From a virus, in UHGV virus genome UHGV-0198133: a stretch of DNA of 21,885 nucleotides. One strand, 5' to 3'. The position numbers were made by a program, and so were the translations under genes. Every line of letters begins with the position of its first letter. Positions within the stretch are counted from its first letter, which is position 1. Under the pieces are notes generated by a model. That model had not been told where the DNA came from. It was given only the letters and a program-made list of their open reading frames with translations, and did not search any database. Positions 2,667-19,019 of the stretch are shown here, one piece after another.

Positions 2667-3205
2667 TGCACTTAAAAAACATTACTGCTGGCAACCCTAA
2701 AACAAAAGAGCAATACCAGCTAACGAAACAATTTAACATCAAATGGCTTTATACAGAGGATGGGAAAAACTGGTATGAGGAACAAAAGAACTTTCAGCCT
2801 GATACGTTGAAAATGGTCTATGACCACAACGGCGTTATTATTTGTATTGAAAAGGATGTTTCAGCAATTAATCCGGAAGGCGCAAGCGTCGTTGAATTAC
2901 CTGATATTACAGCAAATCGCCGGGCTGATATTTCGGGTAAATGGATGTTTAAGGATGGCGTGGTAATTAACCGGGAATGCACTTATGAAGAACTGGTGCA
3001 GCAGGCAAAAAATAAAAAGAGCTTATTAATGCGACAGGCCGATGATTGCATGGCACCCCTTCGGGATGCTGTGGATTTGGATATGGCGACAGAGGGGGAA
3101 AAGGAACAGTTACTGACCTGGAAGAAATATCGGGTGTTACTAAACCGTGTTGATACATCGACCGCGCCGGATATCGAATGGCCGGAAGAACCAGACACAA
3201 TGTAA
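2663..3205 (+). CDS. tfa: Tail fibre assembly chaperone (P2 gpG / Tfa family)
   Basis: 180-aa ORF whose ATG overlaps the stf stop (ATGA). N-terminus [25 protein letters not shown] and internal [14 protein letters not shown] resemble P2 gpG/Tfa as recalled. Confidence 0.85.
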
Positions 3206-3361
3206 GCGAAAAAGAAAAACCGCAGACACGACGTATGCAGGACGTGCTGCGGTTGGCTGGCGAACTTTCGATAGTGCGAGTATTGAATGATTTCCAGCCG
3301 TTATTGATTTTATATAACTGTAGTGGAGTTATTCAACACACAGGCAAAACAGAATAATCTG

Positions 3362-3399
3362 AGAAAAAAGCGTGCTTCGTCAGTCCGGGGCGAAGCACG
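3362..3399 (-). terminator. Hairpin with T-run on the minus strand (putative intrinsic terminator)
   Basis: Inverted repeat cgtgcttcg (3371-3379) / cgaagcacg (3391-3399) with an 11-nt loop. The A-run at 3363-3369 gives a U-run after the stem on the minus strand. Confidence 0.4.
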
Positions 3400-3566
3400 T
3401 CTGAATGACACCTGAAAATTTCCCGTCCGTTAAGTGTCCATCCCGAGAGAAGTGGGGAACCATAACACCCTGTCGGGACGCAGAAAGAAACAACACAACT
3501 TGCAGGGATATTTCTCGATACTACGTCAATGGGGGGTGTTAAATTATTACACTTAGTTACAAATAG

Positions 3567-3600
3567 AAAAGCCTCTGACTTCATAAGCAGAGGCTTTTCT
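3567..3600 (+). terminator. Hairpin with flanking A-run and T-run (putative bidirectional terminator)
   Basis: Inverted repeat aaaagcctctg / cagaggctttt around a 10-nt loop, followed by ttttct. Confidence 0.4.
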
Positions 3601-3718
3601 GAAATGCACGTGCATTTTGCGTGTATATTTTGGTCTTTTTCTGGTCCGCTCACTGTCTGGTCAGTGTCCATAAGTGACTGTTTTTATAGTCTCTGTCTGG
3701 TTGTGGTCCTGTCAAAAG

Positions 3719-3763
3719 TGGTGGAGCTGGCGGGAGTTGAACCCGCGTCCGAAATTCCTACAT
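3719..3763 (-). other. Prophage attachment core: duplicated 3' end of ssrA (tmRNA)
   Basis: Reverse complement reads ATGTAGGAATTTCGGACGCGGGTTCAACTCCCGCCAGCTCCACCA, a tRNA-like T-arm (GGGTTCAACTCCC) plus acceptor 3' end ending CCACCA, matching the E. coli ssrA 3' end from memory. No tmRNA body follows on the 5' side, so this is the partial duplicate copy. Confidence 0.6.
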
Positions 3764-3848
3764 ACCATTTTTACTATAGCAAAAACAGTAGTTTGCATTT
3801 AAAAACAGTGCGTTATTGTTATGTAGTGTTTGTCCATTTTACTAATTT

Positions 3849-4895
3849 TTAATGCGCTGCCGCCAAAGTGCCGCCAACTTCGTTAGGAACTAGAGTTAGT
3901 GCTTCAGAAACGTAATCAGCCCATTCCTGCGAAGAAAATGCTTGTAAAGAATTGGCGTGTTTTCTGAATTTAAACCTCAACTTACCAACATATAAGTAAT
4001 TATAAATGTTGTCGTAATGTGGTATATCTTCATTATATATCAAACGAATTAGTTTTCTTGATAGAAGATATGATATTTCTAAAATATCGGCGAATACTTG
4101 TTCTTCAAGTGTAAATGTTTTTAATTGATACCCATCATATTTTATCAAACAGTATACATGAGATATGGGGGATGTACATATCAGGTCTAATAACGAGGCT
4201 GTATTATATGACAAAGTGTTAAGTCGAATCATGTAACTTAATGGATTATATTCATCTATAGAGTGTTGAACCGACAGAGTATTATTAATTGTGTTTAAGT
4301 ACTCCTTTAATTGCACTAAAAAATCAGGGTTTGCGGTGAAGTTAGATGTGGTCTCTATATTTGATTTGTTGTATATTTTTGTATATAAAAGATATGGGTT
4401 GGAAATTTTAATTTCATCTGCTGTAAACAAAGTGATATTTGGTTCGCCATTGAATTTAATGAGGTTTCCATCTGAGTCTCTCGCGCTTTGAAGATTGTAG
4501 GCGAATATTTCCTTTGTTTTCTCAATAAAGTTTTTCTCATGTGCTAAATATCTATCGACTGCATTTTTCGTTTCAGCGGTGTTGATCTGAGCTTCGGTTT
4601 GTATAGTGCGATGTATATTGTTGACGATCGAAGCCAAAGGAACTGCACTAGCTAGCAATAGTAGAGGGAATTTGCTTATTTCGTAAAATCTTGAATAGCC
4701 ATGTGCGGAGAGTACTGGTTCTTTTCCCCACCATGTGAAAAAACCAAAATAGATAAAGGAAAATAAAGGTGTTAAAACTGAAATCCAAAATAATTTCTGA
4801 CGAAATAAATTTCTTTTATCAAGCATGTACCATTTTTTACTATTGTAATAAATACTAATAAAACGATTGCTGCAATATAAATCACTGTATAACAA
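3849..4895 (-). CDS. Hypothetical AT-rich predicted membrane protein between att and int (cargo/moron)
   Basis: 348-aa ORF, visibly much more AT-rich than the flanking phage genes. Hydrophobic N-terminal segments (LFWISVLTPLFSFIYFGFFTWW and FPLLLLASAVPLASIV) are followed by an Asn/Tyr/Ile-rich soluble region. Start is uncertain: TTG at 4895 or in-frame ATG at 4826. Confidence 0.55.
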   Translation of the reverse strand: MLYSDLYCSNRFISIYYNSKKWYMLDKRNLFRQKLFWISVLTPLFSFIYFGFFTWWGKEPVLSAHGYSRFYEISKFPLLLLASAVPLASIVNNIHRTIQTEAQINTAETKNAVDRYLAHEKNFIEKTKEIFAYNLQSARDSDGNLIKFNGEPNITLFTADEIKISNPYLLYTKIYNKSNIETTSNFTANPDFLVQLKEYLNTINNTLSVQHSIDEYNPLSYMIRLNTLSYNTASLLDLICTSPISHVYCLIKYDGYQLKTFTLEEQVFADILEISYLLSRKLIRLIYNEDIPHYDNIYNYLYVGKLRFKFRKHANSLQAFSSQEWADYVSEALTLVPNEVGGTLAAAH

Positions 4896-8760: not shown

Positions 8761-9614
8761 GCACCATCCTGAAATGGGCGGGTAATAAAACTGCCATTAT
8801 GTCCGAACTGAAAAAATACCTTCCTGCTGGCCCGCGACTGGTTGAACCTTTCGCGGGTTCCTGTGCAGTGATGATGGAGACGGATTACCCCAGCTATCTG
8901 GTTGCGGATATTAATCCTGATTTAATCAACCTCTATAAAAAGGTTGCTGCTGATTGTGAATCGTTTATATCTCGCGCCAGAGTTTTATTTGAGATCGCAA
9001 ACAGGGAGGTGGCTTATTACAACATAAGGCAGGAGTTTAATTACTCAACTGAAATTACTGATTTCATGAAAGCGGTATATTTCCTGTATCTCAATCGTCA
9101 CGGTTACCGTGGTTTATGTCGCTATAACAAGAGCGGGCATTTCAACATTCCCTACGGTAATTATAAAAATCCGTATTTCCCTGAAAAAGAAATTCGCGCA
9201 TTTGCAGAAAAAGCCCAGCGAGCAACGTTTATCTGCGCCAGCTTTGATGAAACGCTGGCGATGTTGAAGGCAGGGGATGTGGTGTATTGCGATCCGCCGT
9301 ATGACGGTACGTTTTCCGGCTATCACACTGATGGTTTCACTGAAGATGACCAGTATCACCTGGCATCCGTTCTTGAACATCGGTCATCAGAAGGACATCC
9401 GGTCATTGTTTCTAACAGTGACACATCCCTGATCCGTTCGCTGTATCGCAATTTTACTCACCACTATATCAAGGTAAAACGCAGCATCGGTGTGGCAGCT
9501 GGCGAGGGTAAATCAGCAACAGAAATCATTGCTGTTTCCGGGCCGCGCTGCTGGGTGGGATTTGATTATTCGCGTGGCCTGGATAGTTCTGCCGTGTACG
9601 GAGTACGTGCATGA
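8758..9614 (+). CDS. dam: DNA adenine (N6) methyltransferase, Dam-like
   Basis: ILKWAGNK near the N-terminus, FAGS (motif I) and DPPY (motif IV), the order characteristic of Dam-type MTases. True start is ATG 8758 with GGAGG upstream; the longer track ORF from 8697 overlaps the TraR-like gene. Confidence 0.8.
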
Positions 9615-12025
9615 GCCATGCCGATATGAACAACTGCTGCGGCTTTAACGAGGCTGCCGCAGCGTTCTCATGGAACAGCCCGAAAAAGGCCATTAACCCT
9701 TATCTGGACCCGGCGGAAGTTGCGCCGGTTTCTGCGCTTTCAAACCTGATCGCTCTGTACGCTGCCGATAACGAGCAGGAACACCTGCGCCGCGAGGCAC
9801 TGAGTGATCAGGTCTGGGAGCGTTATTTCTTTAATGAATCCCGTGATCCTGTCCAGCGCGAAATGGAGCAGGATAAGCTCATTAGTCGGGCAAAGCTGGC
9901 GCATGAGCAGCAGCGTTTTAATCCAGATATGGTCATTCTGGCGGACGTCAATGCCCAGCCTTCCCATATCAGCAAGCCGCTGATGCAACGTATTGAATAC
10001 TTCAGCAGCTTGGGCAGGCCAAAGGCTTATTCCCGCTATTTGCGTGAGACGATTAAGCCATGTTTGGAGCGACTGGAGCATGTACGCGACAGCCAGCTAT
10101 CTGCATCTTTTCGTTTTATGGCAAGCCATGTAGGGCTGGACGACCTGCTGATTCTGCCTGAAATGAGTCAGGATCAGGTGAAACGCCTGTCTACTCTTGT
10201 CGCTGCGCATATGAGCATGTGTCTTGATGCCGCTTGTGGTGATTTGTACGCCACCGATGATGTTAAGCCAGAAGAAATCCGCAAGACATGGGAAAAGGTG
10301 GCAGCAGAAACCCTGCGACTGGATGTTATCCCGCCTGCGTTTGAGCAACTTCGTCGGAAAAGAAACCGCCGTAAACCCGTGCCCTATGAACTCATTCCGG
10401 GTTCGCTGGCGCGTATGTTGTGCGCCGATTGGTGGTACCGGAAATTATGGAAGATGCGTTGCGAATGGCGGGAAGAGCAGTTGCGTGCTGTTTGCCTGGT
10501 CAGCAAAAAAGCATCTCCCTATGTCAGCTATGAAGCCGTGATGCATAAACGTGAGCAGCGCCGTAAGTCGCTGGAGTTTTTCCGTTCTCATGAACTGGTG
10601 AACGAAGACGGCGACACGCTGGACATGGAGGATGTGGTAAACGCCAGCAGCAGCAACCCGGCGCATCGCCGCAATGAGATGATGGCCTGTGTTAAAGGTC
10701 TGGAGCTTATCGCAGAAATGCGCAGTGACTGTGCCGTTTTCTACACTATCACCTGTCCGTCGCGTTTCCATTCCACGCTCAATAACGGCAGACCAAACCC
10801 GACCTGGACAAACGCGACGGTAAGACAAAGCAGCGATTATCTGGTCGGCATGTTTGCTGCATTTCGTAAGGCTATGCACAAAGCCGGGTTGCGCTGGTAT
10901 GGCGTGCGGGTGGCTGAACCGCATCATGACGGCACAGTTCACTGGCACCTGTTGTGTTTCATGCGCAAAAAAGACCGCCGCGCCATTACTGCATTGTTGC
11001 GTAAGTTTGCCATCCGTGAAGACCGCGAGGAGCTGGGCAATAACACGGGGCTACGCTTTAAGTCTGAGCTGATAAACCCGCGCAAAGGTACGCCAACAAG
11101 CTACATCGCGAAATACATCAGTAAGAACATTGACGGGCGTGGTCTGGCTGGCGAGATCAGCAAGGAAACGGGTAAATCCCTGCGTGATAACGCTGAATAC
11201 GTTAATGCCTGGGCGTCTCTGCATCGTGTTCAGCAATTCCGCTTCTTTGGCATTCCGGGGCGTCAGGCTTACCGTGAACTGCGATTGCTGGCTGGTCAGG
11301 CGGCAAGGCAACAGGGGGACAAAAAAGCAGGTGCGCCGGTACTGGATAACCCGCGCCTTGATGCAATCCTGGCTGCTGCTGATGCTGGTTGTTTTGCCAC
11401 CTACATCATGAAGCAGGGCGGCGTACTGGTTCCCCGCAAATATCACCTCATCAGAACTGCTTATGAAATCAACGAAGAGCCGACCGCCTATGGCGATCAC
11501 GGTATTCGTATTTATGGCATCTGGTCACCCATTGCAGAGGGCAAGATCTGCACTCATGCGGTGAAGTGGAAAATGGTTCGTAAGGCCGTTGACGTTCAGG
11601 AGGCGGCAGCCGACCAGGGCGCTTGCGCCCCTTGGACTCGTGGCAATAACTGTCCCCTTGCTGAAAATTTGAACCAACAGGAGAAAGATAAATCAGCTGA
11701 TGGGGACCCCAGAACGGACATTACCCGCATGGATGACAAGGTGTTGCACGATTACCTGCACAGTATGAACAAAAAGGAGCGCCGGGAATTGGCTGCAAGG
11801 TTACGTCTGGTGAAACCGAAACGGCGTAGAGACTACAAACAGCGAATTACAGACCATCAACGACAGCAGCTCGTCTATGAACTGAAATCCAGAGGATTTG
11901 ATGGCAGCGAGAAAGAGGTCGATTTACTCCTTCGCGGCGGCAGTATTCCGTCAGGAGCAGGCCTGCGTATCTTCTATCGGAACCAGCGTTTGCAGGAAGA
12001 TGATAAGTGGCGGAACCTGTATTAA
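9611..12025 (+). CDS. A: Rolling-circle replication initiator (P2 gpA / 186 RepA family)
   Basis: 804-aa ORF coupled to dam (ATGA overlap). Contains an HUH-like motif ([13 protein letters not shown]) and a twin-tyrosine motif YIAKYISKN resembling phiX174 gpA YVAKYVNK. Confidence 0.85.
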
Positions 12026-12095
12026 TTACGCTGGTTAACAATTCGTGCTCTTAATAATATCAGGCATATCAGGCTGATAAGCGTAAAAAAAACGT

Positions 12096-12138
12096 TTTAC
12101 ATCAGTAAGATTATTATATACTGTAAATATAAACAGTG
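12096..12138 (+). promoter_or_regulatory. Candidate SOS-regulated promoter with LexA box
   Basis: taCTGTaaatataaACAGtg at 12119-12138 fits the LexA box CTGT-N8-ACAG with an AT-rich spacer. Upstream TTTACA (12096-12101) and a 17-nt spacer place the -10 over the box. Confidence 0.5.
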
Positions 12139-12179
12139 GTTATACATACAGTATTGCGTGTGGTGTCATAGGAGGAAAG

Positions 12180-12368
12180 ATGCAGGACTATTTTTTGGAG
12201 TCTTTGAAGCTCCAGCGCATTGATTTTTTTCTTAAGCTTGTAGCGGCTAGTGAGTGCGATGATGAAGAGAAGCGGCTTGCTATCCAGTGGGTTTCGGAGC
12301 TGACCGATGAGTTAATGGCGAAAATCCGTACTCATGAGTACAACCGTTCAATGGATCTCCCCGGTTAG
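12180..12368 (+). CDS. Small SOS-controlled protein, Tum-like antirepressor candidate
   Basis: 62-aa ORF with AGGAGG immediately upstream, downstream of the LexA box, in the position after repA where 186 carries LexA-repressed tum. No sequence-level confirmation. Confidence 0.45.
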   Translation: MQDYFLESLKLQRIDFFLKLVAASECDDEEKRLAIQWVSELTDELMAKIRTHEYNRSMDLPG

Positions 12369-12952
12369 GCTTAGAAACGTTGCTGGCGTTAGGACTTGAT
12401 TCTGACGCTAGCAAGGTTGATCAACGAGCCATGCGAGGCGTTAGTCATGGGAAAAAAATAGTAACTTCCAGATTTTGCTTCGTGCCAGGTATTGAGTAGT
12501 TTTATCGCCAGAGGGGCTGTTAGCGCTCAAACTACTAATGGAGCCACACCTTAGATGAGTGATTTGGCTTAAGCTATGATTATATAGTTTCGCTGTACGG
12601 CGGCCTTGCTTTTTATTGAAGCGACCAGACTGGAACAACGGCGAAAGGAGACTAACGATACGCACCAGTTTTTTGAAAAGGTACAGTTATCTAGATTGGT
12701 TGCCAATTTTCGTTGAAACCTGACATACCATTAGGTCATTGCTTTAGAAAAATTAATACTTGATGTGAGAATTGCTTCAAAACATCTAGAATTAAAGTTT
12801 CTTTACTAGTATGCTTCATCACTTGGTCGTTGGGTTGAGTGCAAAAGCTAAGGCTGATGCCCAGTACGCTATCCGCATTATTGCCAGAGAACCGATTCGA
12901 AACCGGAATCTGGCAGAGCATGGGCGCAAGTGCTGGCTTCCCAACGGCCTCG

Positions 12953-13921
12953 TTATTTATAATATGCTGACTTCAAAACCACTCGTCTTTCAACCTGCTG
13001 TGATAGCATTACCGCGTTAGTCCAATCTTTTGGATACCTTATTTCTTCTATAACACGAATATAAGCACATACTTTATTTTTTCCCTCTCCTTTGGCATAA
13101 GTAACCTCTAGATTATTAAATTTCAATAAGTGCTCTCTTCTTTGGTAAGTAAAACAGCCGTAATCACGGACATCAGAAGAAGTAATAGCATGAGTTGAAG
13201 GAAACCGAACTAGTAAATTTCTCAAGTAGGGAATAATGTCCAAACTCGTTGCTTTGTTTTCTTCTCTGCGACTCTTTCTGAACATATGTCTCCAACCCAG
13301 CCGTGTAAGCTCGATTTTCCCAAGCACCGGAGATGTGATTTCTTTCTGTTCAGAATAACGTTTTTTAACAAACGCTCGCCGATTATTAAGTAGTGAGTTT
13401 CTTCTTCTTACATGGATTCCTTTTGCTCCAGTTTCACCTGCACGTACCATGGACATACAGCGAGCCAGGTCAAACCGTGTGGCCGGAGTGATTAAGTGAT
13501 ATTCTCCATAAGTTTGGTTTTTAAGGGTAGTGTTTGGATGTATATAGGCCCAAAATGCTTTACGATTAGTTCTGTCAACCCAAACGACACATATATGGTG
13601 AGTTGTCCTTTTGGCTGCTTTTTTTGCGGCCGAATTTAATACAAAACCTTTCTCTAATAAATGACCATAAGTTGCCCCTGATTTAACTTGCGATAATATA
13701 AGCATTCTTTCTTTTGATGCCCATGGATGTTCGAAGGATAATATTAAATCTATTTTTGAATTGTCGTCTTCCCTGGAACCCCAGTGCCCCTCTCCTCTAC
13801 AAGCAAGAATGAATTGACTCATTGCATAAGATTCGGCGTCACTGCCGTTAACTGAGTTAAACTGTCTTGTTTCTAGCACAGTTGGTATTGGTCGTGATGC
13901 AAGTAAACTGAAAGATCCCAC
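12953..13921 (-). CDS. Hypothetical AT-rich orphan protein in the repA-cos cargo slot (possible nuclease-like N-terminal domain)
   Basis: 322-aa ORF with GTG start at 13921 preceded by GGAGA (alternative ATG at 13822). N-terminal region has a pattern compatible with a PD-(D/E)xK-like core (E...KIDLILSF...MLILSQVKSG). Flanked by ~580 bp and ~600 bp of non-coding DNA. Confidence 0.5.
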   Translation of the reverse strand: MGSFSLLASRPIPTVLETRQFNSVNGSDAESYAMSQFILACRGEGHWGSREDDNSKIDLILSFEHPWASKERMLILSQVKSGATYGHLLEKGFVLNSAAKKAAKRTTHHICVVWVDRTNRKAFWAYIHPNTTLKNQTYGEYHLITPATRFDLARCMSMVRAGETGAKGIHVRRRNSLLNNRRAFVKKRYSEQKEITSPVLGKIELTRLGWRHMFRKSRREENKATSLDIIPYLRNLLVRFPSTHAITSSDVRDYGCFTYQRREHLLKFNNLEVTYAKGEGKNKVCAYIRVIEEIRYPKDWTNAVMLSQQVERRVVLKSAYYK

Positions 13922-14358
13922 TTATAGTTCTCTCCAAAAAATTGCATAATCTTGAACGCTAAAAAATAGTATACAAACTAAAGTATTTTTTCATTTAATT
14001 CAATGTATTGGCTAAAATTAAGACATTTATAGCTATATGTACTAGATAACATAGCGTTGTTTTCCTTTTGAAATCTCTTCTTGTGGTAACACAACAGTAT
14101 TTACTCAAGTAGTTTGTCACTGCATGGGGAGATTTTGCTATGTCCGCGGCATCATACAGATGCGATAGATTTTCAGCATGACCTTGGGTAGCAAATCTGT
14201 AGGTATCATCCATTGCACCTCAAAGTAACTCTGGTGCATACCTATGCTGCATGAAAATGAATGATCGCTAGTGGATCGTTTAAGTCGAAGCCTGCCAGTT
14301 CTGACGAGCTTTTGCTTATGTTATGCAACTGCATGAAAACCACTACACAAAGCGGGCA

Positions 14359-14377
14359 GGCGTGGCGGGGATACGAG
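14359..14377. other. Candidate cos site
   Basis: GGCGTGGCGGGGA at 14359-14371 matches the first 13 nt of the 19-nt cohesive end I recall for phage 186 (GGCGTGGCGGGGAAAGCAT); the remaining bases diverge. Lies between repA-side and portal-side genes as expected. Confidence 0.4.
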
Positions 14378-14529
14378 CGCGCGCTAAGTCATATAAGAGT
14401 TATATATTGATTTGATTGCTGGACATGCATACAGTATCGCTCTATCATCTAATAAATCTTAGAGTATTTGGCAATGTTTGGATAAAATGGAACCTAACTT
14501 ATTCATAATCCGCTAAACAGGGATGTCAG

Positions 14530-15444
14530 ATGCCATACCAATTGGTAGAGCTTAGCCCCGTAGCTAACGATCTTGAACAGTTAGGAACCAAAGAGAAGTT
14601 TTGGTTCTATTTCTCCGATGACACTGTAAATTTGCAGTTGTTTAAGTACTCTAGGCCAGGTACTGGCGAGCATTGGTCTGAAAAGTGTGCTGCTGAGTTA
14701 TGTCATTTGCTTAACATTCCACATGCTAGCTATGATTTGGCGCGATACAATGGTCGATTCGGTGTGGTGACTCAGAATATCATTCCATCTGGTTTCCGGA
14801 TGGTAATGGGAAATGAAGTGCTTCACAGTTCGACATTCGATTATCCTGGGCCTTTACAAGCCGGGGAAAAGCCGGTAAGGGTCAGAGAACACACTGTCAC
14901 AAGGGTATTGGGTTGTTTGGATAGGGAATCTATCAAGCCTCCTCCGAGTGTATATGATCTAACCGGGCTAAATGCAGCAGATGTATTTTGTGGATATTTG
15001 ATGCTCGATGCACTTGTGAGTAATCAAGATCGCCATCATGAAAATTGGGCGATCATGCTTAACAATGAAACTGGTGAGCAGTTTTTGTGTCCAACATACG
15101 ATCATGCCGCTAGTTTAGGAAGGGAGATGTTAGATGATGAGCGTAACGAACGGCTTAATACTAAAGATAAAAATCGACAAATCCCATGTTTTGTAAGAAA
15201 AGCTCGCTCTGAGCTATTCAAAGCAAAAACTGATAAAAAGCCCTTGCTGACCGTTGAAGCATTTCAACATGCAGTTGAAGGGAGAGTTGCCGCTCGCGAC
15301 CATTGGTTAGGTAAGTTGAGCGTTTTAACAGAAGATTCCATTACAGATGTGTTTAACCAAGTGCCTTCATCGTGTATATCCGACAGTGCACGTAGATTTG
15401 CAACGTTAATGGTAATGGAAAATCGCAGAAGGTTACTAGAATGA
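14530..15444 (+). CDS. HipA-like Ser/Thr protein kinase, compact core only
   Basis: 304-aa ORF. Gly-rich loop LGTKEKFWF (compare HipA GAQEKT), catalytic-loop-like LVSNQDRHHENWA (compare HipA D-x-H-x-K-N) and Mg-binding-like PTYDHAAS 24 residues later (HipA D309 to D332 is 23). No HipA N-terminal subdomain. Confidence 0.6.
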   Translation: MPYQLVELSPVANDLEQLGTKEKFWFYFSDDTVNLQLFKYSRPGTGEHWSEKCAAELCHLLNIPHASYDLARYNGRFGVVTQNIIPSGFRMVMGNEVLHSSTFDYPGPLQAGEKPVRVREHTVTRVLGCLDRESIKPPPSVYDLTGLNAADVFCGYLMLDALVSNQDRHHENWAIMLNNETGEQFLCPTYDHAASLGREMLDDERNERLNTKDKNRQIPCFVRKARSELFKAKTDKKPLLTVEAFQHAVEGRVAARDHWLGKLSVLTEDSITDVFNQVPSSCISDSARRFATLMVMENRRRLLE

Positions 15445-16181
15445 CTAATACAAACTCCGTTTACGTCGCATGGCAGGCACCAGATACCAGAGACTGGCAT
15501 GTTGTTGGTAACTTGCAAGAGCGCAAATCGGGGTATGTTTTCAGGTATACCAAAGGTGCTCTTAAATCTACTAAATTTACAAAGTTTAGCGGCATGAGTG
15601 ATGTTCGTGAAACTTATGTTTCGGAAGAATTGTTTCCTCTTTTTAAAAATCGCCTTTTATCACCGAGACGTCCAGAGTATCCGAGTTTCATTAAATGGCT
15701 TGGATTTGAAGAAGATAAGGTAAATCCTATCGATATTCTTGCTCGCTCGGGAGGCTTACGAAGCACTGATCAGCTGCAGATTTTCAAAAAAATTGATGTT
15801 GATTCTGATGGTAACTTTGAGCATTTTTTCTTCTTACATGGACTTGGTTACTTAAATAGCTTAGCTAATGCTCGTGTATCTGAATTGAAACCGGGGCAAA
15901 TTTTGCGTCTTTGCTTGGATCTTCAAAATGAATACGATGGGGATGCTGTTGTCGTTCGTGCAGATAAACCAGCTGAAATCGTTGGTTACTGCCCTAGGTA
16001 TTTAAGTAATGATATCAAGAAGATGTTATTGGATGATCCAAAATCAATCACTTTAACGGTCGAAAAGATTAGCGATGATGCTCCTCATAACTATCGGTTA
16101 TTATGTAAATTATCAGGAGTACTAAGCCAAGCCTGTCAATCGACGCTGATTCCTCAGGATGAGTTTGAACCTATTGAGTAA
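15441..16181 (+). CDS. HIRAN-like domain protein with unknown N-terminal domain, coupled to the kinase
   Basis: 246-aa ORF whose ATG overlaps the kinase stop (ATGA). C-terminal half (FFLHGLGYL...LQNEYDGDAVVVRADKPAEIVGYCPRYLSNDIKKML) follows the HIRAN pattern seen in HLTF (VVGLRYY...NPYDKNAIKV...VGHLKKELA). Confidence 0.5.
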   Translation: MTNTNSVYVAWQAPDTRDWHVVGNLQERKSGYVFRYTKGALKSTKFTKFSGMSDVRETYVSEELFPLFKNRLLSPRRPEYPSFIKWLGFEEDKVNPIDILARSGGLRSTDQLQIFKKIDVDSDGNFEHFFFLHGLGYLNSLANARVSELKPGQILRLCLDLQNEYDGDAVVVRADKPAEIVGYCPRYLSNDIKKMLLDDPKSITLTVEKISDDAPHNYRLLCKLSGVLSQACQSTLIPQDEFEPIE

Positions 16182-16186
16182 ATGAA

Positions 16187-16212
16187 GAAAAGCCACCAAA
16201 CGGTGGCTTTTC
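16187..16212. terminator. Bidirectional intrinsic terminator between the kinase/HIRAN operon and portal gene Q
   Basis: aaagccacc / ggtggcttt stem with loop aaac, flanked by an A-run upstream and T-run downstream; serves convergent transcripts. Confidence 0.55.
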
Positions 16213-16215
16213 TTA

Positions 16216-17256
16216 TTATGGGACTATATCTAGCGAGTAGGTATTAAACTGTATCGCCTCCTTGCCAAGCCAATCATTCATCTCCTGTAATCGCTTTTGT
16301 AGTGGCATTAGCTCATTTCGGACGAATACACGGCTTGCCTTTTCCACATCCCCAAACCCCCCAACATTATTCGGCATAATCCCCATCATTTGCGGCGGCA
16401 CGCGGTGCGCTGCCATCATGTCATCCCGACTCACGTTCTTGATGTTAAGAAATTCATCCTTCGCCGCGACTTCTGACAATGGGATGATCTGAAGCCCGTC
16501 TTTTTTGCCGTTAGGTGAGTACATAAACAGGTTGCGGAAGTTGCCTGGACCTTTGGCGCTTTTCATCGCGTTGCGGAGGTTGTTCACATCCTCCTGATTC
16601 TGCGCGGCATCGGTCATGTACATGATGAAGCCTGCATGGCTGCCGTTAATGTAATACTTACGGCGGAACAACGTGGCGGACTCGTTGAGCAGGGCTGACG
16701 GAATGGCAGAAAGATAACCGGGCAGGCCGTAGATCTCCTGGTTGATATCCGGTTCCATCAGATGAAAGATGCTGCCTTTCGTGAACTGATACGGCTGCGT
16801 AGTCATGCCGTATTGCACAAACCAGTAGGTATCCAGGTCTAACCCGCGTCGGGTGTATTTTGCCAGAGCAGGCTCAAGGGCGATAACTTCACCGAAGCGG
16901 TTCGTGCGTTTCTCCAGGTAGGCGTTACCAAATACCAGATAGTCCTGCACAAAACGTGAAAAAGCCTGCTGGCTGAGCAGCGGGTGGGGGATGTAGGTAC
17001 TGGTCAGAATGTTGCATTTCACCGCAATTGGTGAACTGTGATGCACGGCGGCGCGGAAGGTGCGCGCCAGTCCGTCAAAGCTTACTGGCGGCTCATACCA
17101 GCGATCTGTCTGTACGCATTCCACATAGTCCAGTAGTTCGCGGCGGTCCAGAACAGGAACGGGATCACCGAAGCTGAATGCTTCGGCTGTAGTTTGACTT
17201 TTATGCTGGATCTGGTTCGTCGACGCAGCGCGGTTCTTCTTACTCTTTCCCATCAA
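16216..17256 (-). CDS. Q: Capsid portal protein (P2 gpQ family)
   Basis: 346-aa ORF (P2 gpQ is about 344 aa), leftward, immediately upstream of and overlapping the terminase gene as in P2. Confidence 0.8.
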   Translation of the reverse strand: MMGKSKKNRAASTNQIQHKSQTTAEAFSFGDPVPVLDRRELLDYVECVQTDRWYEPPVSFDGLARTFRAAVHHSSPIAVKCNILTSTYIPHPLLSQQAFSRFVQDYLVFGNAYLEKRTNRFGEVIALEPALAKYTRRGLDLDTYWFVQYGMTTQPYQFTKGSIFHLMEPDINQEIYGLPGYLSAIPSALLNESATLFRRKYYINGSHAGFIMYMTDAAQNQEDVNNLRNAMKSAKGPGNFRNLFMYSPNGKKDGLQIIPLSEVAAKDEFLNIKNVSRDDMMAAHRVPPQMMGIMPNNVGGFGDVEKASRVFVRNELMPLQKRLQEMNDWLGKEAIQFNTYSLDIVP

Positions 17257-19019
17257 AAAATCTCCACAATATTACTGGTATTGGCGGACTCGCCCTGCAG
17301 TGGTTCGTTAAACAGTGCGTGCATTGTTGCCCAGGCCAGATCGGCGTGGCTGGCTTCTTCGCTGCGGCTGGCTTCATAGGTTGGGCGGTTGCCACTGGCG
17401 GTGGTTGCGCGACGGATTGCCATGAATGACTGCGCAATGTCGGTGTGCCCGGCGTCAAACTCCAGACGGCGGTGGCTGATAATGTCGTAGGCCTTGAGTA
17501 CCAGGGCGTTTTTAACGTTGGGGTTGTAGACAAACTCCCGGACGGCAGGAAAGAACGCTTTCACGTTCTCGTAAACCCCGTGACCAACGCCGGTTGAGTC
17601 GATACCGATATAAGTCACGTTGTACTGTTCGGTAAGTTTTTTGATGGCGTCAGCCTGGGCGCGGAAGTCCATCCCGCGCCACTGGTGACGCTCAAGAATG
17701 CGGAACTTACCACCCGGCACGGCTGGCGGTGCCACCACCACGCATCCAGCGCTGTCGCCGTTTTGCGTACCTTTTGCCGGGTCATAACCGATCCACACTT
17801 CGCGCCAGCCAAACGGGCGCAGCGCCAGTGCATGAAAGTCGGTCCAGACTTCCCAACTGTCCACCATGCACGCCTGCAGCTCGCTGAGCGGAAACACGGA
17901 CGCGAGATCGTCCACAAACTCGCACATCAGCAGGTTCTGGTATTCGTCTGGGCTGTACTCCATGCGTAGCTGGTCGAGGTCGAACAGGTTACAGCCGCCG
18001 CGCACCGCATCTTCCACGGTGACTATCTGGCGGTATTGCCCGTCTGCGCACAGCAGGCCGGGGGCCAGATTGCTGTGGGACAGGTCGATGTCCACCTTAT
18101 CGGCTTTGTTGCGCCCACGGTTGAACAGCGCACCGGACCAGAACGGATAAGCACTGTGTGTCAGACTGGATGGCGTGGAAAAATAGGTTTGTCGCCATTT
18201 TTTGTGAATAGCCATACCGGAAGCCACTTTGCGCAGCTCCTGGAATTTCGGTATCCAGAAATATTCATCCAGATACAGGTTGCCGTGGTAACTCTGGGCC
18301 GTGCGGGCATTGGTGCCGAGGAAGTAAAGCGTGGCCCCGTTAGGAAGCACCATCGGATCGCCTTTCAGCTCCACCTCCACTTCTTTGGCAAAGTCGATGA
18401 TGTACTGTTTAAAGACGTGGGCCTGAGCCTTGCTGGCAGAAAGGAAAATCTGGTTACGCCCGGTCAGCAGGGCGTCAATCAGGGCTTCACGGGCAAAGTA
18501 AAAGGTCGCGCCGATCTGGCGTGACTTCAGCAGGTTGCGGATGCGGTTGGTTTTTCCGGCTTCCCACCAGTGGCGCTGGTAGTTGAACATAGAGGAATGG
18601 AAGATTTCTTCCAGTTTCTCAATCTGTTCATCGGTGAAAACATTCTTTTCCGGCTGACGACGTGGGCCTTTGTTGCGGTTGGCAACGTTAGGGTTTAAGT
18701 CGGCTTCGTTGCCGCCATTGTTAAACTTGCCGATCCGCACGTGGCGCTCAGACTGGCGTGCCAGCAGGTCAATTTCTTTGAAATCTTTCCCTTCTTTGTG
18801 CTCCTTCATAATGAGCTGGCAGTAGCGTGCGGCGGTGGTGAGCTGCATCTGATCCAGCGGCCCATAGTCACCCCACTTGTCGCGTTTTTTCCAGCTGTGA
18901 ACGGTTGCAACTTTCTCGCCCAGCATTTCAGCAATGCGGGCGACGCGGTATCCCTGAAAGTACAGCAGCATGGCCTGCCGACGGGGATCGAGATCTGCGG
19001 GTGTCAGTGTGGTGTTCAT
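17253..19019 (-). CDS. P: Terminase large (ATPase) subunit (P2 gpP family)
   Basis: 588-aa ORF divergent from O-N-M, with start overlapping the Q stop. Size and position match P2 gpP. Confidence 0.8.
   Translation of the reverse strand: MNTTLTPADLDPRRQAMLLYFQGYRVARIAEMLGEKVATVHSWKKRDKWGDYGPLDQMQLTTAARYCQLIMKEHKEGKDFKEIDLLARQSERHVRIGKFNNGGNEADLNPNVANRNKGPRRQPEKNVFTDEQIEKLEEIFHSSMFNYQRHWWEAGKTNRIRNLLKSRQIGATFYFAREALIDALLTGRNQIFLSASKAQAHVFKQYIIDFAKEVEVELKGDPMVLPNGATLYFLGTNARTAQSYHGNLYLDEYFWIPKFQELRKVASGMAIHKKWRQTYFSTPSSLTHSAYPFWSGALFNRGRNKADKVDIDLSHSNLAPGLLCADGQYRQIVTVEDAVRGGCNLFDLDQLRMEYSPDEYQNLLMCEFVDDLASVFPLSELQACMVDSWEVWTDFHALALRPFGWREVWIGYDPAKGTQNGDSAGCVVVAPPAVPGGKFRILERHQWRGMDFRAQADAIKKLTEQYNVTYIGIDSTGVGHGVYENVKAFFPAVREFVYNPNVKNALVLKAYDIISHRRLEFDAGHTDIAQSFMAIRRATTASGNRPTYEASRSEEASHADLAWATMHALFNEPLQGESANTSNIVEIF

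What the first reader, a model, noticed from the sequence alone, without database searches (positions are those of the whole stretch)
14530..16181. HipA-like kinase plus HIRAN-domain protein operon in the cos-to-portal cargo slot
Two translationally coupled genes (ATGA overlap) lie between the putative cos site and portal gene Q, a known hotspot for anti-phage cargo in P2-like phages. The first protein has the three hallmark HipA-family motifs in the right order and spacing but lacks the HipA N-terminal subdomain. The partner has a C-terminal HIRAN-like fold, which binds ssDNA 3' ends in eukaryotic HLTF. I do not recognise a kinase-HIRAN pairing as a named defence or toxin-antitoxin system. 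One working model is that the HIRAN protein senses phage replication intermediates and licenses the kinase to phosphorylate an essential host target, giving abortive infection; a reversed-order toxin-antitoxin module is the alternative. The operon ends in its own bidirectional terminator.
Basis: partly seen in the sequence, partly recalled or inferred. Interest (0 to 1): 0.85.

Follow-up and report, generated by a model that had tools for sequence, protein, structure and literature searches.

The report
HipIN kinase module in P2 prophage
A P2-like E. coli prophage carries, between its cos site and portal gene, a two-gene HipA-type kinase module whose partner protein joins a kinase-inhibitor-like domain to a DNA-end-binding HIRAN domain; this pairing is already catalogued as a candidate toxin-antitoxin or anti-phage system (hipIN, PDC-M03), but I found no experimental test of it.

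Summary
Two genes, 14530-15444 (304 aa) and 15441-16181 (246 aa), overlap by ATGA. They sit between a cos core (14359-14385) and the stop of portal gene Q (16216), and end in a strong bidirectional hairpin.

Gene 1 is a HipA/CtkA-fold Ser/Thr kinase core that lacks HipA N-subdomain-1. Its Gly-rich loop, catalytic DRHxxN and Mg-binding YDH are invariant in the family.

The claim that the pairing is unnamed is wrong:
- Gerdes et al. 2021 named it hipIN (HipI kinase plus HipN, HipS-like-HIRAN).
- PADLOC-DB lists it as candidate PDC-M03 (E 2e-122 and 3e-93).
- Rousset et al. 2022 list these exact protein accessions in P2 hotspots, and a Vibrio homologue as an unknown "HIRAN-kinase" system.

I found no experimental validation.

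The most likely mechanism is inferred, not shown. The HipS-like domain holds the kinase off, HIRAN couples its release to free DNA 3' ends, and the kinase then blocks translation.

Verdict: already known candidate, interest about 0.3.

The parts
14359..14385 (.). cos-like core (GGCGTGGCGGGGATACGAGCGCGCGC); left boundary of the cargo slot
   Evidence: Pattern match, 1 hit against 0.01 expected. The region 14235-14385 is shared at 80-90% identity with 1245 of 5426 E. coli genomes. The same core sits about 155 bp upstream of the portal stop in the empty-slot prophage L012. That this sequence is the cohesive-end site rests on my recollection of the P2/186 cos sequences and on Rousset 2022.
14386..16215 (+). 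hipIN cargo module (about 1.83 kb) inserted between the cos core and the portal gene Q stop
   Evidence: Only 21 of 1245 cos-bearing genomes extend past about 14385. GC is 39-44%, against 52-58% in the flanking phage genes.
14420..14448 (+). sigma-70 promoter-like site TGGACA-17-TATCAT (10 of 12), about 80 bp upstream of hipI
   Evidence: This is a consensus match only; function is not shown.
14530..15444 (+). hipI: 304-aa HipA-family Ser/Thr kinase core. Gly-rich loop aa 16-26 (nt 14575-14607), catalytic NQDRHHEN aa 165-172 (nt 15022-15045, D167 at 15028-15030), Mg-binding YDH aa 190-192 (nt 15097-15105)
   Evidence: PDC-M03A E 2.1e-122. HipA_C E 3.6e-4, below the Pfam cut-off, but matched by 47 of 48 homologues. 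AF2 pLDDT 84. Foldseek hits CtkA at E 7e-11 (TM up to 0.76), HipA and HipT.
15441..16181 (+). hipN: 246-aa two-domain partner; start overlaps the hipI stop (ATGA)
   Evidence: PDC-M03B E 3.4e-93. AF2 pLDDT 89.5. The full-length architecture is kept in the listed representatives of 1014 50%-identity clusters at E<=1e-10.
15441..15785 (+). HipS-like domain of HipN (about aa 1-115), homologous to HipA N-subdomain-1
   Evidence: Couple_hipA E 0.018 here and in 28 of 44 homologues, best E 7e-4. Foldseek hits HipS of E. coli HipBST, 7ab3_E: E 1.2e-3, probability 1.00, TM 0.72, 21% identity; also HipA 3tpd. hhalign aligns aa 20-72 to HipA 11-65, weakly.
15819..16124 (+). HIRAN domain of HipN (aa 127-228)
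   Evidence: Pfam HIRAN E 1.1e-13, above the cut-off, in 44 of 44 homologues. Foldseek hits HLTF HIRAN 4xzg/4s0n at E 3e-5 and lp_0118 3k2y. N163, Y165, D166, A169, G182 and R186 align to HLTF N91, Y93, D94, A97, G109 and K113.
16185..16214 (.). bidirectional intrinsic terminator hairpin shared by hipIN (+) and portal gene Q (-)
   Evidence: 13-bp stem, -21.0 and -20.4 kcal/mol, z -6.2 and -7.5, U-tract on both strands. It differs from the hairpin downstream of Q in the empty-slot prophage L012.
16216..17256 (-). P2-type portal gene Q (right flank, not part of the module)
   Evidence: annotated 'phage portal protein', followed by the terminase ATPase subunit.

Best explanation
This is a hipIN-type module (PADLOC candidate PDC-M03), carried as accessory cargo in the cos-to-Q slot of a P2-like E. 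coli prophage and expressed from its own promoter.

HipI is a HipA/CtkA-fold Ser/Thr kinase core with no N-subdomain-1. HipN supplies that subdomain in trans as a HipS-like domain, fused to a HIRAN domain that keeps the residues HLTF uses to hold a DNA 3' end.

Proposed mechanism (inferred by analogy, not shown):
1. The two proteins are made in coupled amounts and form a complex.
2. In that complex the HipS-like domain sits over the kinase Gly-rich loop and active site and keeps it off, as HipS does to HipT.
3. When the HIRAN domain engages free 3' ends or ssDNA, for example from replication, packaging or incoming linear genomes of a superinfecting phage, the inhibition is relieved.
4. HipI then phosphorylates an essential translation factor, most likely an aminoacyl-tRNA synthetase as for HipA (GltX) and HipT (TrpS).
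5. Growth stops and the infection is aborted, which protects the lysogen population.

I put identity as hipIN / PDC-M03 at about 0.9. I put the kinase-toxin and HipS-like-inhibitor relationship at about 0.6, and DNA-triggered anti-phage abortive infection at about 0.35-0.4. The single confidence figure given (0.55) is for the explanation as a whole.
For: Identity:
- Full-length hits to PDC-M03A and PDC-M03B.
- The architecture matches hipIN as defined in PMC8262856.
- The exact accessions are listed in P2 hotspots, and 'HIRAN-kinase' is listed as an unknown system, in PMC9122126.

Kinase competence:
- The CtkA/HipA/HipT fold.
- D167, N172 and D191 align to HipA D309, N314 and D332 and to CtkA D155 and D179.
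- G19, T20, K21, E22, K23, K39, D167, H169, N172 and D191 are invariant in 48 homologues.

HipS-like plus HIRAN partner. HipS neutralises HipT by binding at the Gly-rich loop (PMC10627512).

Autonomous two-gene unit:
- The same order with overlapping stop and start is found in V. cholerae, Ectopseudomonas, a second E. coli island, Microbulbifer and a Vibrio Vinavirales prophage.

Cargo status:
- Present in 21 of 5426 E. coli genomes, against 1245 that carry the cos core.
- An empty slot exists in L012.
- GC content is low.
- The cos-proximal gpA-gpQ region is a validated hotspot of anti-phage systems.

A natural fusion, HipL (kinase-HipS-HIRAN), is reported in the literature.
Against: - I found no experimental evidence for toxicity, neutralisation, DNA binding or phage defence in this family.
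- PDC systems are unverified candidates, and two other PDC candidates showed no defence when tested in a native host.
- Rousset et al. report that only about a third of the hotspot systems they cloned were active.
- The HipS residue that wedges into HipT (Trp65) is not conserved. By extending the weak HipA alignment by eye, the equivalent stretch in HipN is S74-P75-R76.
- Gene order is kinase first, the opposite of hipBST, and there is no HipB-like HTH gene.
- The sequence-level links are weak. HipA_C scores 20.7 bits against a cut-off of 30.5, and the hhalign probabilities are low. The fold assignments rest on predicted structures.
- The kinase target is unknown.
Confidence: 0.55

Rival explanations
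1. It is a plain toxin-antitoxin (addiction) module with no phage sensing. HipN is a labile antitoxin. Its HIRAN domain replaces HipB as the DNA-binding part that autoregulates the operon. The module stabilises the prophage or island, or contributes to persistence.
For: [quoted passage not shown] There is no HTH gene in the module. The pair also occurs as an isolated two-gene insert among housekeeping genes in V. cholerae and Microbulbifer, as many TA loci do.
Against: In characterised cases HIRAN binds DNA ends rather than specific operator sequences (literature cited). I found no inverted-repeat operator upstream of hipI. The module recurs on temperate phages and satellite-like islands and in a validated defence hotspot. 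The TA and defence readings are not mutually exclusive.
Confidence: 0.25
2. It interferes directly with the phage, without aborting the host. HipN uses HIRAN to recruit the kinase to phage DNA ends or replication forks, and HipI phosphorylates phage or DNA-associated proteins rather than a host translation factor. The HipS-like domain acts as an adaptor or activator, not an inhibitor.
For: The closest solved structure, CtkA, is a HipA-like kinase that does not act as a TA toxin. The HipS Trp65 wedge is absent. In HipA the equivalent N-subdomain is an integral part of an active kinase.
Against: Every characterised bacterial Hip toxin target listed by Gerdes et al. is an aminoacyl-tRNA synthetase. 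There is no evidence for any phage substrate.
Confidence: 0.1
3. The module serves the P2-like phage itself, for example by handling cos ends or taking over the host during lytic growth, rather than excluding competitors.
For: It lies directly next to cos. After terminase cutting, cos ends have recessed 3' ends, which is the ligand type of HIRAN (inference from my own knowledge).
Against: It is present in only 21 of about 1245 cos-bearing E. coli genomes, and P2-like prophages with an empty slot exist, so it is dispensable. The same pair occurs in non-phage chromosomal sites and in unrelated Vinavirales prophages.
Confidence: 0.03

Closest known systems
hipIN module (HipI kinase + HipN putative antitoxin), Gerdes, Baerentsen and Brodersen, mBio 2021 (PMC8262856)
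   Same: A short Hip kinase lacking N-subdomain-1, with the Gly-rich loop at the N-terminus and a Thr beside it. The downstream gene encodes a HipS-like N-domain plus a C-terminal HIRAN domain. The module is bicistronic with the kinase first. The same abortive-infection hypothesis was proposed there.
   Different: Nothing in architecture. That paper had only 14 hipIN modules, and this E. coli prophage copy was not found in its text-held supplements. Placement in their tree was not tested here.
PADLOC-DB candidate PDC-M03 (A+B), and 'HIRAN-kinase' in Table S6 of Rousset et al. 2022
   Same: Full-length HMM matches to both components. The Vibrio crassostreae 'HIRAN-kinase' has the same domain string, HipA_C + Couple_hipA/HIRAN, in a prophage hotspot. 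The exact E. coli accessions are tabulated in P2 hotspots.
   Different: These are catalogue entries without a demonstrated phenotype.
HipBST tripartite TA system (E. coli O127, Legionella)
   Same: A split HipA: a kinase core without N-subdomain-1 (HipT), plus a separate HipS-fold protein that matches the N-domain of HipN. HipS is the antitoxin.
   Different: There is no HipB. The HipS-like part is downstream, not upstream, and is fused to HIRAN. The HipS Trp65 wedge is not conserved. The HipT target (TrpS) is not known to apply here.
HipL (monocistronic kinase-HipS-HIRAN fusion)
   Same: The same three domains in the same order.
   Different: In HipL they form one polypeptide. Here they are split into two translationally coupled genes.
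HipBA (E. coli K-12)
   Same: The catalytic Asp/Asn and the Mg-binding Asp align, and the fold matches.
   Different: HipA is 440 aa with its N-subdomain-1 in cis. Its antitoxin is the HTH protein HipB, encoded upstream. It is chromosomal and linked to persistence.
Old and Tin of phage P2, and other gpA-gpQ hotspot cargo (PARIS and others)
   Same: The same cos-proximal hotspot of P2-like prophages, carrying lysogen-expressed accessory genes.
   Different: The proteins are unrelated. hipIN sits on the Q side of cos, and a separate cargo block sits on the gpA side.
CtkA of Helicobacter pylori (3akj), the closest solved structure to HipI
   Same: A compact HipA-like kinase fold, TM 0.67-0.76, with catalytic D155 and D179 aligned.
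   Different: 14% identity. CtkA is a secreted proinflammatory kinase without a HipS/HIRAN partner.

Membership tests
hipIN (Gerdes et al. 2021) | Short Hip kinase (279-321 aa) that lacks HipA N-subdomain-1, so the Gly-rich loop lies near the N-terminus | tested here: met
   The protein is 304 aa. The invariant E16-x-LGTKEKFWF motif is at residues 16-26. The model matches HipA only over the core and matches HipT and CtkA over their full length.
hipIN (Gerdes et al. 2021) | Canonical Hip motifs: Gly-rich loop, catalytic motif, Mg2+-binding motif | tested here: met
   D167, H169, N172 and D191 align to HipA D309, H311, N314 and D332 and to CtkA D155 and D179. All are invariant. The Gly-rich loop was assigned by pattern and position, not by a scored alignment.
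hipIN (Gerdes et al. 2021) | Fourth canonical motif: the activation loop | tested here: inconclusive
   The invariant stretch S41...T45-G46-E47-H48-W49 follows the invariant K39, where the HipA activation loop follows K181. No alignment produced here covers that region (one search aligns only 153-194).
hipIN (Gerdes et al. 2021) | [quoted passage not shown] | tested here: met
hipIN (Gerdes et al. 2021) | Phylogenetic placement of the kinase in a HipI subclade of main clade XI | not tested
hipIN as a toxin-antitoxin system | The kinase is toxic and is neutralised by HipN | not testable with these tools
   This needs expression experiments. I found none published.
PADLOC PDC-M03 | Adjacent genes matching both the PDC-M03A and PDC-M03B HMMs | tested here: met
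   E 2.1e-122 (2-304 of 304 aa) and E 3.4e-93 (1-244 of 246 aa).
Anti-phage defence system (validated) | Demonstrated protection against phage | not testable with these tools
   PDC entries are unverified candidates. 'HIRAN-kinase' is listed under unknown systems.
Pfam HipA_C (PF07804) | Score at or above the curated gathering cut-off (30.5 bits) | tested here: not met
   20.7 bits, E 3.6e-4, covering only aa 154-225. However, 47 of 48 homologues match at E<=0.01, best 3.9e-9.
HipA/CtkA-type kinase fold | Predicted structure superposes on solved HipA-family kinases | tested here: met
   AF2 pLDDT 84.4, pTM 0.85. Foldseek: CtkA E 7e-11, TM up to 0.76; HipA E about 1e-6; HipT (Legionella pneumophila) E about 3e-6.
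Pfam HIRAN (PF08797) | Score above the gathering cut-off, and the HIRAN fold | tested here: met
   51.3 bits against 24.7. HLTF HIRAN E 3e-5, TM 0.64 normalised to the target.
HIRAN as a DNA 3'-end binder | Conservation of the HLTF residues that hold the 3' nucleotide (Y93, D94, with N91, G109 and K113 nearby) | tested here: inconclusive
hhalign pairs N163, Y165, D166, G182 and R186 with them, but at 20% probability. N163, D166, G182 and R186 are invariant. DNA binding itself is untested.
HipBST | Tripartite operon with an HTH protein HipB and with HipS upstream of the kinase | tested here: not met
   There is no third gene. Upstream of hipI are the promoter-like site and cos, and the HipS-like domain is downstream and fused to HIRAN.
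HipBST | The HipS Trp65 wedge that blocks the Gly-rich loop | tested here: not met
   Extending the HipA alignment by eye puts S74-P75-R76 at that position. The alignment is weak, and the eLife paper notes that some HipS proteins have Pro there.
P2-like prophage cos-proximal hotspot cargo (Rousset et al. 2022) | Variable genes between gpA and gpQ, next to cos, in a P2-like prophage | tested here: met

The most novel reading that the evidence does not exclude
hipIN is a genuine abortive-infection system in which a HIRAN domain acts as a sensor of free DNA 3' ends or ssDNA. On sensing, it releases a HipS-like brake from a HipA-family kinase, which then shuts down translation. This would be the first demonstrated Hip-kinase anti-phage system and the first bacterial immune sensor built on HIRAN. 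Its position immediately beside cos, on the Q side, may have its own significance, but this was not examined. The idea was published as a hypothesis in 2021, so the novelty would lie in the demonstration, not the concept.
Probability: 0.35. Interest if true: 0.6.

Novelty: already known. Interest (0 to 1): 0.3.

Why it matters
The locus is a clean natural example of a catalogued but untested candidate system. It is compact (1.83 kb), has its own promoter-like site and terminator, and sits in a prophage hotspot where other cargo has been validated as anti-phage defence. That makes it a convenient construct for testing whether HipA-family kinases, known mainly from persistence research, also act in phage defence. 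It could also test whether bacterial HIRAN domains sense DNA ends. As a discovery it adds little. The pairing, its domain logic, its name and the abortive-infection hypothesis are all in the literature, and these very proteins are already tabulated in P2 hotspots.

Tried and rejected
- **PDB sequence searches.** Single-sequence and profile searches found only a weak CtkA hit for HipI and nothing usable for HipN. The fold-level links needed structure prediction.
- **NCBIfam.** No significant family for either protein.
- **Megablast against deposited phage genomes.** No match. tblastn found only distant copies (37% identity) in Vibrio Vinavirales prophages and one Clostridioides phage.
- **hhalign of the family profiles against single HipA and HLTF sequences.** It placed the motifs sensibly but with low probabilities of 0.7-20%. 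I use these only for residue mapping.
- **Literature searches for experimental work.** Searches on HipIN, HipN, PDC-M03 and HIRAN with kinase and phage found none. Several apparent hits were author names (Hirano) or hip-surgery papers.
- **Millman et al. preprint.** It does not mention HipA or the HIRAN domain in its text, so I could not confirm the origin of the 'M' series of PDC candidates.
- **Rfam scan of 12000-16500.** Only a sub-threshold hit on the terminator hairpin (32 bits against 114). No RNA component is indicated.
- **Repeat search.** No operator-like inverted repeat upstream of hipI.
- **The simple terminator scan.** It missed the hipN-Q hairpin, which direct folding showed.
Full report
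**1. What is there**

The window carries the early region and the start of the late region of a P2-like prophage. It includes an integrase, a CI repressor, replication gene A (9611-12025), portal Q (16216-17256, minus strand), terminase P (17253-19019, minus strand), and the scaffold and capsid genes. A near-identical prophage in E. coli MS1665 is annotated in exactly this way.

Two plus-strand ORFs, 14530-15444 (304 aa) and 15441-16181 (246 aa), overlap by ATGA. SD-like purine runs precede both starts; I read these directly from the sequence.

A cos-like core, GGCGTGGCGGGGATACGA, lies at 14359-14376. A sigma-70-like site (TGGACA-17-TATCAT) lies at 14420-14448. A 13-bp-stem hairpin at 16185-16214 has U-tracts on both strands and folds far better than shuffled sequence (z -6.2 and -7.5).

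**2. It is cargo**

- The 14235-14385 cos region is shared at 80-90% identity with 1245 of 5426 complete E. coli genomes. Only 21 genomes continue into 14386-14529, and 21 genomes carry hipIN.
- In E. coli T28R the same cos core is followed by only about 155 bp and a different hairpin before the portal stop. The roughly 1.83-kb block 14386-16215 is therefore an insertion that brings its own promoter-like site and terminator.
- GC is 39-44% across 12000-16500, against 52-58% in gene A and in Q and P.
- Rousset et al. define the cos-proximal gpA-gpQ interval as a hotspot of anti-phage systems in P2-like phages.
- A second, independent cargo block lies on the gpA side of cos, at 12357-14234.

**3. 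The kinase**

- Pfam gives only a sub-threshold HipA_C hit (20.7 bits against 30.5), but 47 of 48 homologues match HipA_C.
- The AlphaFold model (pLDDT 84.4, pTM 0.85) superposes best on H. pylori CtkA (E 7e-11, TM up to 0.76). HipA and Legionella HipT follow.
- Profile alignments place D167, H169 and N172 on HipA D309, H311 and N314, and D191 on HipA D332. The same Asp residues align to CtkA D155 and D179. I verified the HipA sequence used against PDB 2wiu.
- These residues are invariant in 48 homologues down to 57% identity. So are the N-terminal LGTKEKFWF loop, which contains T20, and K39.

**4. The partner**

- The C-terminal half (aa 127-228) is a bona fide HIRAN domain. Pfam gives E 1.1e-13, above the cut-off, and 44 of 44 homologues match. 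Foldseek hits HLTF HIRAN at E 3e-5.
- N163, Y165, D166, A169, G182 and R186 align to HLTF N91, Y93, D94, A97, G109 and K113. I verified the HLTF sequence. This alignment has low probability.
There is a weak Couple_hipA hit here, and 28 of 44 homologues also match it.
- Foldseek hits HipS of the E. coli HipBST complex (7ab3_E) with probability 1.00, TM 0.72 normalised to HipS and 21% identity. It also hits HipA.
- hhalign pairs aa 20-72 with HipA 11-65.
- So the 'missing' N-subdomain of the kinase is encoded in the next gene, fused to HIRAN.

**5. The pair is a conserved, mobile unit**

The same order, with overlapping stop and start, recurs in five other settings:
- a two-gene insert among housekeeping genes in V. 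cholerae;
- next to an integrase in Ectopseudomonas;
- an E. coli AlpA/DUF3987 island beside a cdiBA locus;
- Microbulbifer;
- beside the integrase of Vibrio Vinavirales prophages.

The two-domain HipN architecture defines 1014 clusters at 50% identity with E<=1e-10. Nearly all of the 150 listed representatives are 235-270 aa.

**6. Comparison with what is known**

- **Gerdes et al. 2021.** They described exactly this arrangement as hipIN: a short HipI kinase with a downstream HipN, which is a HipS-like domain plus HIRAN. They also described the fused version, HipL. They proposed that HIRAN recognises phage DNA ends or replication intermediates and activates the kinase for abortive infection.
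- **PADLOC-DB.** It holds both proteins as candidate PDC-M03A and PDC-M03B. PDC entries are unverified candidates.
- **Rousset et al. 2022.** They tabulate the exact accessions found here, WP_001146828 and WP_000185757, in P2 hotspots. They list a Vibrio homologue as the unknown system 'HIRAN-kinase'.
- **A 2025 NAR paper.** It again treats HipA-HIRAN clusters as merely predicted defence genes.
- I found no experimental test.
- The system differs from HipBST in three ways: there is no HipB, the order is reversed, and the HipS Trp65 wedge is not conserved.

**7. Mechanism**

What is shown: the domain identities, the conservation of catalytic and HIRAN pocket residues, the translational coupling, the conserved pairing and the cargo status.

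What is inferred by analogy with HipS-HipT and HLTF:
1. The HipS-like domain holds HipI inactive.
2. HIRAN engagement with free 3' ends or ssDNA relieves this.
3. HipI phosphorylates an essential translation factor, giving growth arrest.

The rivals are a plain addiction or persistence TA module with HIRAN as autoregulator (0.25), direct phosphorylation of phage or DNA-bound proteins (0.1), and a role in the P2 life cycle (0.03).

**8. Verdict**

It remains an untested candidate, so it has practical value as a test construct. I set interest at 0.3 and novelty at 'already known'.

Noticed in passing
window 12357-14234 (ORF 12953..13921 minus strand, 322 aa; ORF 13995..14213 minus strand, 72 aa): A second, independent cargo block lies on the gpA side of cos. 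Homology to the MS1665 prophage breaks at 12356 and resumes at 14235. The 322-aa protein has no PADLOC, NCBIfam or PHROG match. It has only weak Pfam DUF4365 and LPD3 hits. It has 179 homologues of about 320 aa in proteobacteria and cyanobacteria. The block occurs in only 4 of 5426 E. coli genomes. It may be an uncharacterised single-gene defence candidate.
   Followed up: partly
L013 (Vibrio phage 10N.222.46.E12_PE001, PQ189286) 2935-4649: A HipA-like plus HIRAN pair (37% identity to HipI, 4-nt overlap) sits next to the integrase of a 14.6-kb temperate Vinavirales (non-tailed) Vibrio phage. The module is therefore cargo on unrelated phage lineages as well.
   Followed up: partly
L007-L010 7001-8663: A 71%-identical hipIN variant in E. 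coli (146 member sequences) lies in an island with AlpA, a DUF3987 protein and an AEP-type primase. The island sits directly beside a cdiB/cdiA contact-dependent-inhibition locus. This may be a satellite-like element.
   Followed up: no
L012 about 3710-3727 (E. coli T28R, empty cos-Q slot): A long homopolymeric G run lies between the cos core and the portal-gene terminator in the cargo-free prophage. Its significance is unknown.
   Followed up: no
window 14575-14607 (HipI aa 16-26): Lining up HipA S150-VAGAQEK with HipI E16-QLGTKEK by eye puts the invariant Glu16 at the position of the HipA autophosphorylation site Ser150. The invariant Thr20 falls inside the loop. This is not supported by any scored alignment here, but it is relevant to whether HipI is regulated by autophosphorylation.
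   Followed up: no
Rousset et al. 2022, supplementary file 3 (plasmid pFR108): A different P2-hotspot candidate, 'Exonuclease + HipA', was cloned by those authors. I did not check whether it showed activity or how its kinase relates to HipI.
   Followed up: no
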